A stretch of DNA of 53,201 nt from an uncultured Candidatus Saccharibacteria bacterium (GTDB lineage: Bacteria; Patescibacteriota; Minisyncoccia; Phycocordibacterales; UBA1006), in NCBI GenBank assembly GCA_964415895.1, contig CAYQCC010000007.1, positions 1 to 53,201 of the forward strand. The letters are read 5' to 3'. How positions within the stretch are numbered: the stretch's first letter is position 1; every line of letters starts with the position of its first letter. The notes below the pieces were generated by a model that was not told where the DNA came from, did no database searches, and saw only the letters and a program-made list of their open reading frames with translations. Below, piece by piece: positions 36,334 through 41,220 of this stretch. Both the position numbers and the translations under genes were made by a program.

Positions 36334-37776
36334 ATGAATGAACAAAAACCCTTTTATATAACAACGACATTGCCGTATGTAAATGCTGATCCACACGTTG
36401 GTTTTGGTATGGAATTGGTGCGCGCAGATGTGCTGGCTCGCTATAAAACTCTTACTGGTCACGAGGTATTTTTCAATACAGGAACTGACGAGCATGGCCA
36501 GAAGCTTCTTGATGATGCAAAAAAAGCAGGCGAAGACGTGAAAGCGTATGTAGATCGATTCGCAAAAGAATTCAAAGGCCTTTCAAGTCTGTTGGATATT
36601 TCATCAGACGTTCATTATATTCGAACTACTGATACTCACCACGAATCTGCTGCGCAGGAATTTTGGAAGCGTGTATCTGACAATGGATACATTTACAAAA
36701 AACCGTATCAGATAAAATACTGTGTCGGGTGTGAACTTGAAAAAACAGATTCAGAATTAGTAGATGGTCAGTGTCCAATTCACCCAACATATACACTTGA
36801 AGTTATTGATGAGGAAAATTATTTCTTCAAACTGTCAGAGTTTCAGCAACCATTGTTAGATTTTTACGCACAGAATCCGCATTTTGTTGTGCCCGATTTT
36901 CGATTTAACGAGATTAAGTCATTTATTGAACGAGGATTGGAAGATTTTTCAATCTCACGCTTGAAATCAAAAATGCCATGGGGAATTTCTGTTCCAGGTG
37001 ATGATACCCAAGTGATGTATGTTTGGTTTGACGCCCTTGTAAATTATATTTCAACACTTGGCTGGCCAGAAGATAATGCTAATTATGAAAAGTTCTGGGG
37101 CAATGGTACTCCGACACAATACTGTGGAAAGGATAACTTGCGACAGCAATCTGCGATGTGGCAGGCGATGTTGATGGCTGCAAAATTACCAAATTCACAC
37201 CAAATTATCATCAATGGATTTTTTACAGGTGAAGGTGGAATTAAAATGTCTAAATCAATTGGCAATGTTGTGAATCCGTATGACGCAGTTGCAGAATATG
37301 GAACAGATGCATTTCGACTATTCGTCTGCAAGGAAGTTTCCATGTTTGAAGATTCGCCGTTTACGATCGAACGATTTGCTGCAGCGTACAATTCAAATTT
37401 GGTAAATGGACTTGGAAACCTGGTTTCGCGAACGCTTACTATGGCGCAATCCTATGATGTTGATATTTCAGATTTGATATTTCCAGAATTTGAAACAATT
37501 GCACATCCTGCATACGAGCGATTTGATTACGCAGAAGTTACGACTTCATTGTGGTCTGAAATTGCGGACTTGGACAAATATATTACTGACACAGAACCGT
37601 TCAAAACATTTAAAGTTGATCCAGATAAAGCTCGGGCCGATGTTCATCATGTTATTACTGGTCTTGCTCGAGTTTCAGTATTGCTTCAGCCGATTATGCC
37701 AACAAGTGCAGCGAAAATTGCAGAGCTTATCAAGAAACGAGAAAAGCCAGCAGAGCCGTTGTTTGTGCGGAAATAA
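36334..37776 (+). CDS. metG: Methionyl-tRNA synthetase (short form)
   Basis: YITTTLPYVNADPHVG (HIGH-like), GTDEHG, YVWFDALVNY, KMSKS; start moved to ATG 36334. Confidence 0.95.
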   Translation: MNEQKPFYITTTLPYVNADPHVGFGMELVRADVLARYKTLTGHEVFFNTGTDEHGQKLLDDAKKAGEDVKAYVDRFAKEFKGLSSLLDISSDVHYIRTTDTHHESAAQEFWKRVSDNGYIYKKPYQIKYCVGCELEKTDSELVDGQCPIHPTYTLEVIDEENYFFKLSEFQQPLLDFYAQNPHFVVPDFRFNEIKSFIERGLEDFSISRLKSKMPWGISVPGDDTQVMYVWFDALVNYISTLGWPEDNANYEKFWGNGTPTQYCGKDNLRQQSAMWQAMLMAAKLPNSHQIIINGFFTGEGGIKMSKSIGNVVNPYDAVAEYGTDAFRLFVCKEVSMFEDSPFTIERFAAAYNSNLVNGLGNLVSRTLTMAQSYDVDISDLIFPEFETIAHPAYERFDYAEVTTSLWSEIADLDKYITDTEPFKTFKVDPDKARADVHHVITGLARVSVLLQPIMPTSAAKIAELIKKREKPAEPLFVRK

Positions 37777-37778
37777 TT

Positions 37779-38927
37779 ATGGAAGGACATACTCCAAAAA
37801 GTAAAATAGAAACAAAAGGCGCTCCAGTAATAAAAGAAGGAGTTGATTTTGTGTTCAAGCAGAATCCCGAACTTAAAAGAATCGCATATGAAAATTTGGG
37901 ATACAGTTATAAGAACTATCGAGGTGACGCTACGCCTGTGATTATTGATTATTTCGGACAAGGTACTGCTGGAGAGATAGGTTTTTCTTCAAAAAATAAG
38001 GGAATTAAAACAGCCGATAAGGCAAAAATAGACGAGCTTGTTAAAAGTTTTTTGAATATCGGACAAGGTAACTTTTTAGAGATACATACTGAAAGCGGCA
38101 TGCGTAGATTTGACTTTCATTTTATTGCAAGAGGTCCAGAGGATACGAGTAGAAAGGGGTATCACGGAGGCATCAGCTTGTTTTTTAAAGACAAGCTACC
38201 TAATCCTGTAGATCTAATAAAATCTATCAATAAAGCATTAAAAGATTATAAGAAAGAAAATTATATTCTTCATGAAGATGGAAGATATATACCTATAAAA
38301 TCGAACTTCACGGAATTTTCGTCTCCTAAAATATATCCAACTTTTTCAAGTAGTTTGGATATTCCAAAGGACTTGTCTGAAAATGACTTCAAAAGATTTT
38401 TTATGAAAGAGTTCAATTCAGAACTAGAAAGGCAAAATAGATTAGAACAAGAATCAACACAGCTCTATTCTAACTATCTCGAAACAATTTTTCCCGAGAG
38501 TAAGGTTAAAGAGATTGTATGGCACGGTACAGATGTTGATTTCAAAAACGAAGGATTCAAGGCAATGCCTCCTTCTTCACATACAAAATGGTTTACAGAT
38601 GAATCATTAGGGAATAGGTTCTATTTCACTAACGATTATAACAAAGCTCAAAAAAGATATTCATTACAAAATGGCAAACCAGGAATAATGGTTGCGGCTT
38701 TGCTAAATCTAAAGAATCCTAAGGACGACGATACTTATGATGGCACAGATTTGAGAGATAAAGATTTATCAGGATACGATTCTTATATTCAAAAAGCCAC
38801 ATACCAAGCCGATGGTACTAAAAATAGTCAGTATTTCGTGGCGTTTGATCCAGAACAAATTCATATTTTGGGTTCGCAATCAGACATTGAAGGATTTAAA
38901 AAGTTTGTTGAATCTAAAGAAAAATAA
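37779..38927 (+). CDS. Protein with ADP-ribosyltransferase-like (ART-PolyVal-like) C-terminal domain
   Basis: WHGT, FYFT, LNLKNP, GYDS and FDPEQI motifs in order. Confidence 0.65.
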   Translation: MEGHTPKSKIETKGAPVIKEGVDFVFKQNPELKRIAYENLGYSYKNYRGDATPVIIDYFGQGTAGEIGFSSKNKGIKTADKAKIDELVKSFLNIGQGNFLEIHTESGMRRFDFHFIARGPEDTSRKGYHGGISLFFKDKLPNPVDLIKSINKALKDYKKENYILHEDGRYIPIKSNFTEFSSPKIYPTFSSSLDIPKDLSENDFKRFFMKEFNSELERQNRLEQESTQLYSNYLETIFPESKVKEIVWHGTDVDFKNEGFKAMPPSSHTKWFTDESLGNRFYFTNDYNKAQKRYSLQNGKPGIMVAALLNLKNPKDDDTYDGTDLRDKDLSGYDSYIQKATYQADGTKNSQYFVAFDPEQIHILGSQSDIEGFKKFVESKEK

Positions 38928-38929
38928 TC

Positions 38930-40351
38930 ATGCAACCAATCAACCCAACAACCTATTGCATTATTGGAATGAGTCCTGGAAACAGTTATTTCAAGGACGA
39001 TGAAATCAAGTATCTTTTGAAAACCACGATTGAACGATATGGTCGCGTGGCTATTATGATCGCCGACATTCCGGCGATTTCAACGTATATGGCGTTTGGG
39101 TATCCTGCGAATCTTGCTCGTCGTACAAAAGCTTTGCCACAGGGAAATTTGCTTAAAAATAGAACCCGAAGAGCAATGCATGAATTAGGTTATTTGGACG
39201 AACAGGTTTGTATTATTGATTGGGAAAACGAAGTAGAAACAAATAGTGAATATAAAAAATCATATCAGCATATTCGAGATCTGTATAATAACAATACTCA
39301 GTTTATGAGCGATGTTGATGAAACAACAAGAGCTGTATTAATTGGATCAAAGCGTGAGATTGCAGATATAAATGTGGCGACAAAAACAGCGGTTCATTAT
39401 TTGCTTTCAGAATTCGCGTTTTTAAATTGGGCGCCAGAATTCTTGAATGTTGAAAAAGTTACATATGTGTATCACAAAAACTGGTTGGTATATGAAAACT
39501 ATATTGCTGGTAAATATGATGGAATTCCAAAAACATCTACTGATTTTGTGTTACTTGAAAATCCATATGAAACATATAATCCGATCTGGGGACTGGAAGA
39601 CGAAAACCAGGGCGAGTATTCCGACGTGTTTGAACGGATCGAATCAACAAAAACGCTTCGCGTAGGATTTACGAATTATATTCCTGCGTTCATGTACGAT
39701 TCTGATTACAATAATTTTTCCGGAATCTTTTACGAGATTATTATCGAGATTGCAAAGAAACACGGTTGGCGCGTTATCTGGACCGAGGAAACAGGATACG
39801 GTGTGATCGTGGATGGGTTGAACAACAATCGCTTTGATTTGTTTGGAAGTGCAGTATGGCCAACACCTGAAAGATTAGCACAAGCTGACTTTTCAAATTC
39901 ACTTTATAAAAGTAATGTGTTTGCGTGGGTGCGATCAGATTTTAATAAAATAAATGATGAAATGAAGTCTGATATGACTATTCGCGTTTCAGTAAAGGAA
40001 AATGATATTTCAGATTCAATTGCAACTGCAGATTTTCCAAGTAATCGACAAGTAAAAGTTCCTCAGCTTTCTGACACGATGGAATTGTTACAATTTGTCG
40101 CCGATGATCGTGCAGATTTTACATTTGTCGAACCCTATATAGCTTCGCAGTTTAATGAGAAATCCAGTATTCAATTAACTCAATCTTCAACTGAACCAAT
40201 TAGGACTTATGATAACAGTTTCATGATAAAGAAAAGTGAGCAGAAGCTTGTCGATTTGATAAATAACGAACTTGCAATCTTGGAGTCTAATGGAACCATT
40301 GAAAAGCTGATTAAAAAGTACACTGGCACTGATGATACGTATATGAGATAA
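38930..40351 (+). CDS. tRNA-dependent cyclodipeptide synthase (NYH-type) fused to a family-3 solute-binding domain
   Basis: GMSPGNSYF, YLLSE and YVYH (AlbC-like S37/N40, Y178/E182, Y202/H203); C-terminal LRVGFTNY.PAF..G...EI..IAK..RADFS.SLY SBP fold. Confidence 0.8.
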   Translation: MQPINPTTYCIIGMSPGNSYFKDDEIKYLLKTTIERYGRVAIMIADIPAISTYMAFGYPANLARRTKALPQGNLLKNRTRRAMHELGYLDEQVCIIDWENEVETNSEYKKSYQHIRDLYNNNTQFMSDVDETTRAVLIGSKREIADINVATKTAVHYLLSEFAFLNWAPEFLNVEKVTYVYHKNWLVYENYIAGKYDGIPKTSTDFVLLENPYETYNPIWGLEDENQGEYSDVFERIESTKTLRVGFTNYIPAFMYDSDYNNFSGIFYEIIIEIAKKHGWRVIWTEETGYGVIVDGLNNNRFDLFGSAVWPTPERLAQADFSNSLYKSNVFAWVRSDFNKINDEMKSDMTIRVSVKENDISDSIATADFPSNRQVKVPQLSDTMELLQFVADDRADFTFVEPYIASQFNEKSSIQLTQSSTEPIRTYDNSFMIKKSEQKLVDLINNELAILESNGTIEKLIKKYTGTDDTYMR

Positions 40352-40358
40352 TAGGTCT

Positions 40359-40769
40359 ATGAAAAAGAATGACTTAACATCACAACAATATAATGTCCTT
40401 GCAGAACGTGGCACAGAGATGCCGTTTTCTGGTGAATACGATAATCATTATGACAAGGGAACTTATGTTTGCGGATGGTGCAATAATCCATTATACAAAT
40501 CCGATGACAAGTTTGATGCGCACTGCGGTTGGCCAGCTTTTGATGACGAAATCCCTGGAGCTGTTGTACGACATTTGGATGCAGATGGACGACGTGAGGA
40601 AATCACCTGTGCACATTGCGGCGGGCATCTTGGTCATGTATTTCAAGGTGAATACATTACACCAAAGAATACTCGTCATTGTGTGAATTCGCTCGCATTA
40701 ACATTTATTCCTGAAGGAAAACCGTTGCCGCCAGTTGCAGACGAAGATGTGTTGAGCTCCCTCTCCTAA
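40359..40769 (+). CDS. msrB: Peptide-methionine (R)-S-oxide reductase
   Basis: GTEMPFSG, CGWC, KFDAHCGWPAF, CAHCGGHLGHVF, RHCVNS. Confidence 0.95.
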   Translation: MKKNDLTSQQYNVLAERGTEMPFSGEYDNHYDKGTYVCGWCNNPLYKSDDKFDAHCGWPAFDDEIPGAVVRHLDADGRREEITCAHCGGHLGHVFQGEYITPKNTRHCVNSLALTFIPEGKPLPPVADEDVLSSLS

Positions 40770-41220
40770 TTTAGGAGAGGGTCGGGGTGAGGTCGTGGCA
40801 TAGAGAAACTAATTAATATTTTATTCAGTATGATTCGAAGAATTATCAGTAACTCACATCGAATACCGAGAAGAAAATCGCTTCGACAAACTCAAACCCT
40901 AGAAGAATCTATTATTTGGAATATTGTTCGCAATAGCAAATTAGGAGTTCGATTTAGAAGACAGGTTAGTATTGGAAGTTATATAGTCGATTTCTATTGT
41001 CCTGAAAAGAAGCTGATTATTGAAATTGATGGATCCCAACATCTAGATAATAAACAATATGATAAGGAGCGAGAGGATTATCTTTTGTCGCTTGGGATGA
41101 AAACCATACGTTTTTGGAATAATGAAATCAATCAAAATATTGATGGAGTTTATATGAGAATCATAAACATTATTAACAACTAACGACCTCACCCTAGCCC
41201 TCTCCTAAATTAGGAGAGGG
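40759..41220. mobile_element. DUF559 endonuclease cassette bounded by 38-bp inverted repeats
   Basis: 40759-40796 and 41183-41220 are inverted copies (35/38 identical), each containing a CCCTCTCCTA/TAGGAGAGGG palindrome. Confidence 0.7.
40830..41183 (+). CDS. DUF559 / very-short-patch-repair-like endonuclease
   Basis: LRQTQTLEE..W..RN..LGVRFRRQ..IGSYIVDFYC..LIIEIDGSQH..YD..R..L..IRFWN. Confidence 0.92.
   Translation: MIRRIISNSHRIPRRKSLRQTQTLEESIIWNIVRNSKLGVRFRRQVSIGSYIVDFYCPEKKLIIEIDGSQHLDNKQYDKEREDYLLSLGMKTIRFWNNEINQNIDGVYMRIINIINN

What the first reader, a model, noticed from the sequence alone, without database searches (positions are those of the whole stretch)
38930..40351. Cyclodipeptide synthase fused to an amino-acid-binding (SBP family 3) domain
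Seen: all NYH-class CDPS catalytic motifs in the first 200 aa or so, joined in frame to a complete solute-binding domain, with no signal peptide or TM. Established: CDPSs divert aminoacyl-tRNAs to make diketopiperazines and are usually stand-alone or paired with tailoring enzymes; SBPs are normally exported. Inference: a ligand-gated CDPS in which the SBP senses amino acid or product, possibly a signalling system in a symbiont with little secondary metabolism.
Basis: partly seen in the sequence, partly recalled or inferred. Interest (0 to 1): 0.75.

Follow-up and report, generated by a model that had tools for sequence, protein, structure and literature searches.

The report
Cyclodipeptide synthase fused to binding clamp
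The gene really encodes, in one chain, an enzyme that makes cyclic dipeptides from charged tRNAs and a cytoplasmic copy of a transporter-type ligand-binding clamp; the fusion is a conserved family of ultra-small (CPR) bacteria that a 2018 survey listed but nobody has tested, so what the clamp binds and does is still open.

Summary
Observation confirmed. ORF 38930-40351 (+, 473 aa) carries a complete NYH-class cyclodipeptide synthase (CDPS; S15, N18, Y157, E161, Y181, H182) joined to a complete SBP_bac_3 domain. It has no signal peptide or TM segment. Contigs from two independent studies match it without a single difference, so it is not a frameshift artefact.

It belongs to a conserved family. 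More than 119 relatives have both domains. They occur across Patescibacteria (including code-25 lineages), with scattered members labelled Melainabacteria, Bdellovibrionota and others. Both domains and the linker are under strong purifying selection (dN/dS 0.02-0.14). The protein is more conserved than the neighbouring MetRS and ribosomal protein S6.

Gondry et al. [quoted passage not shown] They were never tested and no product was predicted.

The clamp descends from an exported ABC-transporter SBP subfamily and keeps its pocket (R315/E401 with Y250, Y290, W310). It lacks the catalytic Glu of cyclohexadienyl dehydratase. Close CDPS relatives with identical substrate pockets exist without the clamp, so the clamp is an add-on.

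Best reading (about 0.45): a ligand-gated CDPS that senses an amino-acid-like zwitterion. Product and ligand are unknown. Moderately interesting; a variant of a known kind, not a new class.

The parts
38930..40351 (+). Whole CDPS-SBP fusion gene (473 aa), starting 2 nt after the stop of the upstream ART-like gene
   Evidence: ORF list. Both Pfam domains lie in one frame. Independent contigs are identical.
38954..39556 (+). Cyclodipeptide synthase domain (residues 9-209), NYH subfamily
   Evidence: PF16715 99 bits and TIGR04539 114 bits. PDB sequence hits to YvmC 3oqh (E 2e-11) and AlbC 3oqv. The AF2 model has pLDDT about 90.
38972..38983 (+). Catalytic loop G-M-S15-P-G-N18: acyl-enzyme serine (AlbC S37) and the NYH asparagine (AlbC N40)
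   Evidence: Alignment to AlbC. Invariant in the family.
39107..39187 (+). Long basic helix (residues 60-86, ...ARRTKALPQGNLLKNRTRRAMHELG), the counterpart of the tRNA-binding helix alpha4 of CDPSs
   Evidence: Helix 60-86 in the AF2 model. A63, K67 and N77 are invariant and R64 is at least 90% conserved. The tRNA-binding role is inferred from established knowledge of AlbC.
39398..39412 (+). Y157...E161 (AlbC Y178 and E182), catalytic residues
39470..39475 (+). Y181-H182 (AlbC Y202-H203), the subfamily-defining YH pair
39002..39004 (+). E25, conserved in 97% of fused forms but in only 8% of stand-alone CPR relatives; candidate contact or coupling residue next to the catalytic loop
39479..39481 (+). 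N184, conserved in 100% of fused forms against 31% of stand-alone forms; flanked by the P2-pocket residues K183 and W185
39557..39625 (+). Interdomain linker (residues 210-232). Its first part, E-N-P-Y-E-T-Y, is conserved in fused forms. Its acidic second part has low confidence.
   Evidence: F206, L208, E210 and P212 are invariant. Linker dN/dS is about 0.05. pLDDT is about 60 for residues 210-230. Stand-alone relatives end just before this motif.
39626..40333 (+). SBP_bac_3 (type-II periplasmic-binding-protein fold) clamp, residues 233-468, cytoplasmic
   Evidence: PF00497 74 bits. Foldseek matches closed amino-acid SBPs, for example AncCDT-1 5t0w with TM 0.85. dN/dS is 0.02-0.08.
39872..39874 (+). 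R315, the counterpart of the alpha-carboxylate-binding Arg (GlnBP R75, HisJ R77, AncCDT-1 R85)
   Evidence: Alignment with E. coli GlnBP, HisJ, LAO and AncCDT-1. Present in 39/39 fused members and in all 15 exported relatives.
39857..39859 (+). W310, replacing the carboxylate-binding Thr/Ser (GlnBP T70, HisJ S72); with Y250 (39677-39679) and Y290 (39797-39799) it forms an aromatic triad
40130..40132 (+). E401 at the position of the alpha-ammonium-binding Asp (GlnBP D157, HisJ D161, AncCDT-1 D170). I404 (40139-40141) sits where cyclohexadienyl dehydratase has its general acid Glu173.
40004..40006 (+). D359 in the lobe-II ligand loop (position of GlnBP T118 and HisJ T120), invariant in fused forms
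36334..37776 (+). Context: methionyl-tRNA synthetase gene upstream
   Evidence: Pfam tRNA-synt_1g 297 bits. MetRS lies directly before the fusion in relative L004 and upstream in L043.
37779..38927 (+). Context: ART-PolyVal-like gene inserted between metG and the fusion; not part of the system
   Evidence: PF18760 31.7 bits. Absent from L004 and L005.
40359..40769 (+). Context: msrB (SelR) downstream
   Evidence: PF01641 148 bits. Also downstream in L004 and L005 only.

Best explanation
The gene encodes an active, cytoplasmic NYH-type tRNA-dependent cyclodipeptide synthase with a ligand-binding clamp attached to its C-terminus. The clamp was recruited from an exported ABC-transporter solute-binding protein. 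Shown: the fusion is real. All CDPS catalytic residues and a basic helix at the position of the tRNA-binding helix of CDPSs are kept. The clamp keeps a conserved, closed-type binding pocket with an Arg315/Glu401 charge pair and an aromatic triad (Y250, Y290, W310). Both halves and the linker are under strong purifying selection. Close CDPS relatives with the same substrate pockets work without the clamp. Inferred: the clamp binds a small amino-acid-like zwitterion in the cytoplasm. Its opening and closing are passed through the conserved ENPYETY linker and a fixed domain interface near the catalytic loop and P2 pocket (E25, N184). Aminoacyl-tRNAs would then be diverted into a diketopiperazine only when that metabolite is present, or only when it is absent. 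The cyclodipeptide made is unknown. Its P1/P2 motifs (IGMAWFLY / TAVGKWL) match no characterised specificity group.
For: Domains and catalytic residues are confirmed. Independent contigs are identical. All 119 listed homologues have both domains. The fusion sits in one ORF in about 40 species-representative genomes, and it is intact under code 25 in Gracilibacteria-type lineages. dN/dS is 0.07-0.14 for the CDPS domain, about 0.05 for the linker and 0.02-0.08 for the SBP domain. Against relative L004 the protein is 88% identical, compared with 69% for MetRS and 68% for S6. The AF2 models give pLDDT 90.2 / pTM 0.83 and, for a 44%-identical Melainabacteria member, 87.1 / 0.78; values this high point to a fixed two-domain arrangement. 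The SBP half superposes on closed, liganded amino-acid SBPs with TM 0.85. Pocket mapping shows R315 invariant, E401 at the Asp position and W310 at the Thr/Ser position. The same pocket occurs in exported, signal-peptide-bearing relatives, one of which lies beside an ABC permease and ATPase. Stand-alone CDPS relatives are nested among fused ones and share P1/P2 motifs. Residues conserved only in fused forms sit next to the active site. No conserved tailoring or transporter neighbours were found. The DPANN sister clade has a divergent Lrp/AsnC-type regulator beside its stand-alone CDPS in 5/5 loci, a parallel way of coupling the enzyme to small-molecule sensing. From my own knowledge, not checked in the library (one search found nothing): the SBP_bac_3 module of MltF acts as an allosteric ligand-binding regulator of its fused catalytic domain.
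Against: No ligand, product or allosteric effect has been measured for any member. I could not read model coordinates or PAE, so the geometry between the clamp cleft and Ser15 is unknown, and the fixed interface rests only on pTM and linker conservation. The acidic second half of the linker is low-confidence. The evidence from fused-specific residues rests on only 13 stand-alone sequences. The canonical carboxylate-binding Thr/Ser is replaced by Trp and the lobe-I Asp is deleted, so the ligand need not be a standard amino acid. No RNA data show expression.
Confidence: 0.45

Rival explanations
1. Acceptor-presenting clamp. The SBP domain does not merely sense. It holds a free amino acid or other amine-bearing zwitterion next to the aminoacyl-Ser15 intermediate. 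The second half-reaction would then use a non-tRNA acceptor, and the product would be a linear dipeptide or an aminoacyl-ligand conjugate, perhaps cyclised afterwards.
For: The pocket keeps the Arg/Glu pair suited to a free zwitterion. Residues conserved only in fused forms, E25 and N184, flank the catalytic loop and the P2 pocket, where the second substrate binds. High pTM suggests a fixed interface. CDPSs can accept minimal non-tRNA aminoacyl donors in vitro (PMC7613923).
Against: The P2 motif and every residue needed for the normal second step and cyclisation (E161, Y181) are identical in fused and stand-alone relatives. This argues for the same two-tRNA chemistry with or without the clamp. 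No geometry is available to show that the cleft faces Ser15.
Confidence: 0.15
2. Passive or structural module. The clamp serves oligomerisation, stability, localisation or product sequestration and hand-off, without ligand-dependent control of catalysis.
For: Stand-alone relatives function, presumably, without it. No partner genes are conserved.
Against: Conservation is concentrated on canonical ligand-cleft positions (R315, E401, W310, Y290, D359) and is shared with true transporter SBPs. A dN/dS of 0.02-0.08 is hard to explain for a mere scaffold.
Confidence: 0.2
3. Tailoring enzyme. The SBP-fold domain has become catalytic, as in cyclohexadienyl dehydratase or THI5-type enzymes, and modifies the cyclodipeptide. 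This would parallel the CDPS-P450 and CDPS-methyltransferase fusions.
For: Other C-terminal CDPS fusions are tailoring domains (PMC5816076). SBP folds can evolve into enzymes (bioRxiv 10.1101/157495). AncCDT and CDT structures are among the top hits.
Against: The CDT general acid Glu173 is I404 here (L/T/I in the family), and Lys100, Asn128 and Thr132 are V330, K356 and I360. The pocket is shared with exported SBPs that sit next to ABC permease and ATPase genes, so those are binding proteins. The AncCDT hits are consensus-like ancestral binders.
Confidence: 0.1
4. Artefact: two separate genes joined by an assembly or frameshift error.
For: None found.
Against: Contigs from three runs of two studies are identical. 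The single-ORF fusion is found in more than 100 protein clusters and about 40 genomes.
Confidence: 0.01

Closest known systems
[quoted passage not shown] Kerfeldbacteria OGY85379.1 and Ca. Moranbacteria OGI43181.1, listed in Gondry et al. 2018 (Front Microbiol 9:46, PMC5816076, DataSheet4, sheet 'NYH CDPSs')
   Same: Same family and architecture. The Kerfeldbacteria protein is hit P0035, 62% identical over 100% of the query. The pocket motifs VGLAWFLY/TAVGKWT and IGFAWFLY/TGVGKWE compare with IGMAWFLY/TAVGKWL here.
   Different: Nothing essential differs; the window's gene is another member. Those entries were only listed. They were not expressed, no product was predicted, and the C-terminal domain was not analysed.
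Stand-alone NYH cyclodipeptide synthases: YvmC (PDB 3oqh), AlbC (3oqv), Rv2275 (2x9q), BtCDPS (7azu)
   Same: Same catalytic residues (Ser, Tyr, Glu, Tyr), the same N..YH signature and a basic helix at the alpha4 position. The sequence match has E 2e-11 to 1e-5.
   Different: Those enzymes are about 230-290 aa single-domain proteins and usually sit in clusters with tailoring enzymes. This one carries a 240-aa clamp, has no conserved neighbours, and is more conserved than housekeeping neighbours.
CDPS-P450 fusion (CDPS 71) and CDPS-methyltransferase fusions (Gondry et al. 2018)
   Same: A C-terminal extra domain on an NYH CDPS. The isolated CDPS part of CDPS 71 was active.
   Different: Those partners are recognisable tailoring enzymes. 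Here the partner is a non-enzymatic binding fold.
Polar amino-acid ABC-transporter binding proteins (GlnBP, HisJ, LAO, AncCDT-1; SBP_bac_3, class F)
   Same: Two-lobe fold in closed form (TM 0.85), the carboxylate-binding Arg and an acidic residue at the ammonium site.
   Different: No signal peptide and no transporter genes nearby. Trp replaces the Thr/Ser, the lobe-I Asp is deleted and Glu replaces Asp. The closest relatives are an uncharacterised exported subfamily (28-37% identity) that matches no NCBIfam equivalog.
MltF (SBP_bac_3 regulatory module fused to a lytic transglycosylase)
   Same: A family-3 SBP domain fused to an enzyme. NCBIfam PRK10859 matches residues 228-467 at 38 bits. 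From my own knowledge, the MltF module binds a ligand and activates the catalytic domain allosterically, which is a functional precedent.
   Different: MltF is exported and membrane-bound, its SBP module is N-terminal, and its catalytic partner is unrelated.
Cyclohexadienyl dehydratase PheC/CDT and CM-CDT fusions (PDB 3kbr, 8cq3)
   Same: SBP_bac_3 fold, sometimes fused to another enzyme. They are among the structural hits.
   Different: The catalytic Glu173 and supporting residues are absent here.

Membership tests
Cyclodipeptide synthase (Pfam PF16715 / TIGR04539) | Profile score above the curated cut-off | tested here: met
   PF16715 scores 99 bits against 27. TIGR04539 scores 114.3 bits against 45.
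Cyclodipeptide synthase (Pfam PF16715 / TIGR04539) | Catalytic Ser37, Tyr178, Glu182 and Tyr202 (AlbC numbering) | tested here: met
   S15, Y157, E161 and Y181 by alignment to AlbC and YvmC. They are invariant in the family.
Cyclodipeptide synthase (Pfam PF16715 / TIGR04539) | NYH subfamily signature N40, Y202, H203 | tested here: met
   N18, Y181 and H182. Gondry 2018 files family members under NYH.
Cyclodipeptide synthase (Pfam PF16715 / TIGR04539) | Rossmann-like fold related to class-Ic aminoacyl-tRNA synthetases | tested here: inconclusive
   The AF2 model is confident. However, the 50 Foldseek hits listed are all to the SBP half, so the CDPS half was compared with solved CDPSs by sequence only.
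Cyclodipeptide synthase (Pfam PF16715 / TIGR04539) | Forms a cyclodipeptide from two aminoacyl-tRNAs | not testable with these tools
   This needs expression and LC-MS. The P1/P2 motifs IGMAWFLY/TAVGKWL match no characterised specificity group.
ABC-transporter solute-binding protein, family 3 (PF00497) | Profile score above the cut-off and a two-lobe hinge fold | tested here: met
   74 bits against 26.4. TM 0.85 to AncCDT-1 and other closed SBPs.
ABC-transporter solute-binding protein, family 3 (PF00497) | Export signal (signal peptide or lipobox) | tested here: not met
   The domain starts at residue 233 of a protein whose N-terminus is the CDPS core. The highest hydropathy value is 1.39. The exported relatives do have signals.
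ABC-transporter solute-binding protein, family 3 (PF00497) | Encoded beside the ABC permease and ATPase it serves | tested here: not met
   No BPD_transp or ABC_tran gene occurs among the ORFs between 33.7 and 43.5 kb or in relatives' loci.
ABC-transporter solute-binding protein, family 3 (PF00497) | Alpha-amino-acid binding motif (Thr/Ser and Arg for the carboxylate, Asp for the ammonium) | tested here: inconclusive
   The Arg is kept (R315, 39/39). Asp is replaced by Glu (E401: 36 Glu, 3 Asp). Thr/Ser is replaced by Trp (W310). The lobe-I Asp is deleted.
Cyclohexadienyl dehydratase (CDT/PheC) | General acid Glu173 with supporting Lys100, Asn128 and Thr132 | tested here: not met
   The equivalents are I404 (L/T/I in the family), V330, K356 and I360.

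The most novel reading that the evidence does not exclude
The clamp is not only a sensor. It places a free zwitterionic metabolite (an amino acid or another amine) beside the aminoacyl-Ser15 intermediate. This widely conserved single-gene module of ultra-small bacteria would then be a tRNA-dependent ligase with a binding-protein-delivered acceptor, and its product would not be a plain two-tRNA diketopiperazine. A milder version is also open: it would be the first allosterically gated CDPS, coupling the diversion of charged tRNA to the cytoplasmic level of one metabolite.
Probability: 0.13. Interest if true: 0.85.

Novelty: new variant of a known kind. Interest (0 to 1): 0.5.

Why it matters
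CDPSs are treated as stand-alone secondary-metabolite enzymes whose output is set by gene expression and aminoacyl-tRNA supply. None has been shown to be controlled by a ligand. Here a transporter-type clamp is fused to a CDPS, and the protein is kept under stronger constraint than MetRS or ribosomal protein S6. It occurs in organisms that have almost no other specialised metabolism and depend on hosts for amino acids. If the clamp gates or feeds the enzyme, that would give a direct post-translational link between metabolite availability and the diversion of charged tRNAs. It would also point to a conserved small molecule made by CPR bacteria, possibly relevant to their episymbiotic lifestyle. 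The family is small, soluble and single-gene, so the question can be tested directly in E. coli. The interest is tempered because the architecture is already listed in the literature and databases, and because this gene is just one more member.

Tried and rejected
- **Assembly artefact:** rejected by identical contigs from two studies and by family-wide conservation.
- **Cyclohexadienyl dehydratase-like enzyme:** rejected because the catalytic Glu173 equivalent is I404. The strong AncCDT hits reflect consensus-like ancestral binders.
- **Product prediction from the Gondry 2018 P1/P2 motif tables:** the motifs (IGMAWFLY/TAVGKWL) match no assigned group. Family members sit in the unassigned NYH sheet. 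The JGI names 'cyclo(L-tyrosyl-L-tyrosyl) synthase' do not fit the cYY motifs (VGITMLFN/LxFxQLP).
- **Conserved gene neighbourhood (tailoring enzymes, exporters, regulators):** none found across about 60 loci. The largest recurrent neighbour is ribosomal protein L19, in 5 loci. The metG and msrB adjacency is confined to close relatives plus one Absconditabacterales locus.
- **Ligand identity from the nearest exported SBPs:** they are unnamed and match no NCBIfam equivalog. The context of one of them (L070) is not informative.
- **Literature search for a characterised CDPS-SBP fusion:** none found.
- **Expression evidence:** the metatranscriptome runs of the same study hold none of the gene's words.
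- **Whole-genome searches:** I therefore could not ask what else the window's genome encodes, or how frequent the family is among Patescibacteria.
- **Model coordinates and PAE:** not available to scripts. The distance between the clamp cleft and Ser15 could not be measured.
- **MltF allostery and EhuB pocket comparison:** neither could be backed by a library paper.
Full report
**1. The observation**

The window has an ATG-to-TAA ORF at exactly 38930-40351 on the + strand, encoding 473 aa. Pfam places a CDPS domain (PF16715, 99 bits, cut-off 27) on residues 9-194. It places an SBP_bac_3 domain (PF00497, 74 bits, cut-off 26.4) on residues 243-466. NCBIfam TIGR04539 scores 114 bits against a cut-off of 45.

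HMMER alignments to the solved CDPSs YvmC and AlbC map the key residues as follows:

| Window residue | AlbC residue |
|---|---|
| S15 | S37 |
| N18 | N40 |
| Y157 | Y178 |
| E161 | E182 |
| Y181 | Y202 |
| H182 | H203 |

This is the NYH signature. The N-terminus runs directly into strand beta1 of the CDPS core. No 19-residue window exceeds a Kyte-Doolittle mean of 1.39, so there is no signal peptide or membrane segment.

Contigs assembled independently from three runs of two studies (wastewater and another metagenome) cover 37600-40786 with no differences or gaps, at 11-61x word depth.

**2. It is a family, not a one-off**

The 119 best database relatives (51-89% identity, about 460-480 aa) all carry both Pfam domains. 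Those with names come from Candidatus Uhrbacteria, Kerfeldbacteria, Nomurabacteria, Parcubacteria and the 'Patescibacteria group'.

A scan of one genome per species returned 63 loci. My HMM and ORF analysis of them found:
- **Fused, single ORF:** about 40 genomes. These span many Patescibacteria lineages, several Obscuribacterales/Melainabacteria, Bdellovibrionota, and single MAGs labelled Bryobacterales, Alpha- or Gammaproteobacteria and Woesearchaeota. MAG labels may be unreliable.
- **Code-25 lineages:** in a MAG labelled Peribacteria and in an Absconditabacterales MAG, every in-frame stop is TGA, so the fusion is intact under code 25.
- **Defective copies:** one locus (L042) has a single in-frame TAG, and one (L059) is an internally deleted remnant.

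The nearest genome (85% identity) is labelled Candidatus Paceibacterota, so the window is from a CPR bacterium.

Roughly 60 hits among about 185,000 species means the family is broad but sparse. The search patterns were family-invariant motifs, so recall should be fair.

**3. Selection**

An alignment of 68 fused members has 62% mean column identity.

Comparison with the syntenic relative L004:

| Protein | Identity to L004 |
|---|---|
| CDPS-SBP fusion | 88% |
| MsrB | 87% |
| Cupin | 75% |
| MetRS | 69% |
| Ribosomal protein S6 | 68% |
| TatD | 59% |

Pairwise dN/dS among the window, L004 and L005 (dS is about 1 or more, near saturation):

| Region | dN/dS |
|---|---|
| CDPS domain | 0.07-0.14 |
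| Linker | about 0.05 |
| Clamp | 0.02-0.08 |

Both halves and the linker are functional. The constraint is unusually strong for a 'secondary metabolism' enzyme.

**4. The CDPS half**

All six catalytic and signature residues are invariant in 59 fused and stand-alone relatives. The long helix 60-86 is rich in Arg and Lys. This fits the tRNA-binding helix alpha4 of CDPSs, which is established knowledge and was not tested here.

I used the pocket positions defined by Jacques and Gondry: 33, 35, 65, 67, 119, 185, 186, 200 for P1 and 152, 155, 156, 159, 204, 206, 207 for P2. The window protein reads P1 IGMAWFLY and P2 TAVGKWL. The same procedure applied to the Kerfeldbacteria locus reproduces exactly the motif printed in Gondry's table (VGLAWFLY/TAVGKWT), which validates the mapping.

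These motifs match no characterised specificity group, so the product cannot be predicted. Trp at position 119 and the bulky Phe and Tyr residues suggest a shallow P1, but that is inference.

**5. The clamp half**

AlphaFold2 with the family alignment gives pLDDT 90.2 and pTM 0.83. Only residues about 210-230 are uncertain. A second model, of a 44%-identical Melainabacteria member with its own alignment, gives 87.1 and 0.78. Such pTM values for two equal-sized domains suggest a defined mutual orientation. This is inference, because I could not read coordinates or PAE.

Foldseek superposes the clamp on closed, liganded amino-acid binding proteins (AncCDT-1, a Trp-binding SBP, ArgBP, the cystine receptor) with TM about 0.8-0.85. 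Open forms score about 0.58.

I aligned the family with E. coli GlnBP, HisJ and LAO (fetched) and with AncCDT-1. My residue counts for AncCDT-1 reproduce the numbering used in the CDT paper (D19, A20, D21, Y22, W60, Q100, V173, L198). The canonical cleft positions compare as follows (fused-family counts):

| Canonical position | Window residue | Conservation in fused family |
|---|---|---|
| GlnBP F13 / HisJ Y14 | Y250 | 35/39 |
| F50 / L52 / W60 | Y290 | 39/39 |
| T70 / S72 / T80 | W310 | 38/39 |
| R75 / R77 / R85 | R315 | 39/39 |
| T118 / T120 | D359 | 39/39 |
| D157 / D161 / D170 | E401 | 36 Glu, 3 Asp |
| Y185 / L198 | N429 | 38/38 |
| Lobe-I Asp (D10 / D11 / D19) | deleted | - |

The carboxylate/ammonium charge pair is therefore kept as Arg/Glu. 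An aromatic triad and extra acidic residues surround it. The likely ligand is amino-acid-like and zwitterionic, possibly with a cationic or aromatic part. Its identity is unknown.

**6. Not a dehydratase**

Cyclohexadienyl dehydratase needs the general acid Glu173, which is V173 in the ancestral binder. The equivalent here is I404, and L, T or I in the rest of the family. Lys100, Asn128 and Thr132 are V330, K356 and I360. Membership of that enzyme family is rejected.

**7. Where the clamp came from**

A full HMMER search with the clamp alone found only a few 50%-identity representatives of the fusion. After those came a large group of 275-300-aa stand-alone proteins at 28-37% identity (E 1e-25 to 1e-41). 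This is far better than any solved SBP, where the best is E 1e-14.

The 15 I inspected start with an N-terminal hydrophobic signal-like or lipobox-type sequence. They share the motifs EE.GYG, WP..ER, DGDI, PQ and TF.E, and with them the pocket residues Y250, E286/E287, an aromatic at 290, W310, R315, Q379, T398, E401 and N429.

One of them lies beside an ABC permease and ATPase, together with at least five paralogous SBP genes. None matches an NCBIfam equivalog or carries a name.

The fused clamp is therefore a cytoplasmic derivative of a genuine but uncharacterised transporter-SBP subfamily. It kept that subfamily's pocket, which argues for binding rather than catalysis.

**8. The clamp is an add-on**

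Nineteen loci encode close CDPS relatives of 205-240 aa that stop right after the last core strand. They have no SBP-like ORF within 5 kb. In an ML tree of the CDPS domain, the 13 bacterial stand-alone forms are nested among fused ones. The tree needs 5 state changes, at least 3 of them forced by well-supported branches. A DPANN-archaeal stand-alone clade is sister to the rest.

Fused and stand-alone forms share the P1 and P2 motifs, so the same product is expected with or without the clamp.

Only two CDPS-core positions are conserved specifically in fused forms (small sample of 13 stand-alone sequences):
- **E25** (97% against 8%) lies ten residues after the catalytic Ser.
- **N184** (100% against 31%) lies between the P2-lining residues K183 and W185.

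The first half of the linker (ENPYETY) is also conserved. This hints that the clamp communicates with the active-site and P2 side.

**9. Context**

No neighbourhood is conserved across the family. There are no oxidases, P450s, methyltransferases or exporters.

In the window the gene sits in a tight run: metG, an ART-like gene, the fusion, then msrB. In the 88%-identical relative L004, metG is followed after 2 nt directly by the fusion, so the ART-PolyVal-like gene is a local insertion. metG is also upstream in an Absconditabacterales locus. That is a weak hint toward methionine and no more.

In the DPANN sister clade, a divergent double Lrp/AsnC-type regulator lies immediately upstream of the stand-alone CDPS in 5 of 5 loci. 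Members of that regulator family typically sense amino acids (established knowledge). This looks like a transcriptional counterpart of what the fused clamp may do post-translationally.

**10. Mechanism**

Most likely (about 0.45) is a ligand-gated CDPS. The clamp closes on a cytoplasmic amino-acid-like metabolite and, through a fixed interface near the catalytic loop and P2 pocket, switches the diversion of aminoacyl-tRNAs into a diketopiperazine.

- **Shown:** intact catalytic machinery, a conserved pocket, a dispensable clamp, strong selection, and no tailoring partners.
- **Inferred:** ligand binding, the interface and the allostery.

Rivals:
- A passive or scaffold role (0.2).
- An acceptor-presenting clamp that changes the chemistry (0.15).
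- A tailoring enzyme (0.1).
- An artefact (0.01).

**11. What is known**

Gondry et al. [quoted passage not shown] Their supplementary table lists Ca. Kerfeldbacteria OGY85379.1 and Ca. [quoted passage not shown] Neither was tested and no product was predicted. The Kerfeldbacteria record named in that listing appears among my homologues as hit P0035.

I found no paper that characterises such a fusion. The only characterised CPR CDPS, ParcuCDPS, is a stand-alone XYP enzyme.

Earlier reports of this scan on relatives in other genomes reached the same reading. These are not independent evidence.

**12. Verdict**

The finding is real and correctly described. The gene is a new member of an already-listed but unstudied CDPS variant. 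Its appeal lies in the unanswered and easily testable question of what the clamp binds and whether it gates or feeds the enzyme. Interest 0.5.

Noticed in passing
window 37779-38927: The ART-PolyVal-like gene lies exactly between metG and the fusion, with 2-nt spacers on both sides. In the 88%-identical relative L004, metG is followed directly by the fusion. The junction TAAT(T/C)ATG occurs on both sides of the insert (GGAAATAATTATG and AAATAATCATG, against GGAAGTAATTATG in L004). The ART-like gene therefore looks like a precise cassette insertion into an operon junction.
   Followed up: partly
window 40757-40900 (DUF559 gene 40830-41183): Contigs of three independent runs all break or fork at 40757-40796. 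Summed word depth there is about 2.4 times that of the flanks (122 against 50, 142 against 62, 26 against 11), and one joint connects opposite strands. The inverted repeat at the msrB stop is therefore multi-copy in the genome or community. This fits a small mobile DUF559 (PF04480, 123 bits) unit.
   Followed up: partly
L056, L057, L058, L060, L061 (e.g. L060:3187-4248, minus strand): In DPANN-type archaeal MAGs, the stand-alone CDPS of the sister clade always has a divergent 340-354-aa double Lrp/AsnC-type regulator (two HTH_AsnC domains plus an AsnC_trans_reg domain) immediately upstream. The regulators are 65-73% identical to one another. This is a conserved regulator-CDPS pair.
   Followed up: partly
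L043:3089-4570 and window 36334-37776: A methionyl-tRNA synthetase gene lies directly upstream of the fusion in the window, in L004 and in a distant Absconditabacterales locus (MetRS 35% identical). msrB follows in the window, L004 and L005. This may be chance, or a weak hint that methionyl-tRNA is a substrate.
   Followed up: partly
L059:4980-5576 and L042:5220: There are two decayed copies. One is a 199-aa in-frame chimera in a Kerfeldbacteria MAG (CDPS profile positions 1-102 joined to SBP profile positions 127-241). The other is a copy with a single in-frame TAG, in a MAG labelled Gammaproteobacteria.
   Followed up: partly
L070:1-8741: A 3.4-Mb contig carries at least six paralogous SBP genes of the exported sister subfamily around one ABC permease and ATPase pair. 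They sit next to a spermine-synthase-like gene, a prephenate-dehydrogenase-like gene and a MetH-like gene. The ligand range of this subfamily is unknown.
   Followed up: no
window 38930-40351 vs L041 and L043: The fusion is interrupted by 2 and 11 in-frame TGA codons in a MAG labelled Peribacteria and in an Absconditabacterales MAG. It reads through cleanly with TGA=Gly (code 25). The 'Peribacteria' label of L041 may therefore be a misassignment of a Gracilibacteria-type genome.
   Followed up: partly
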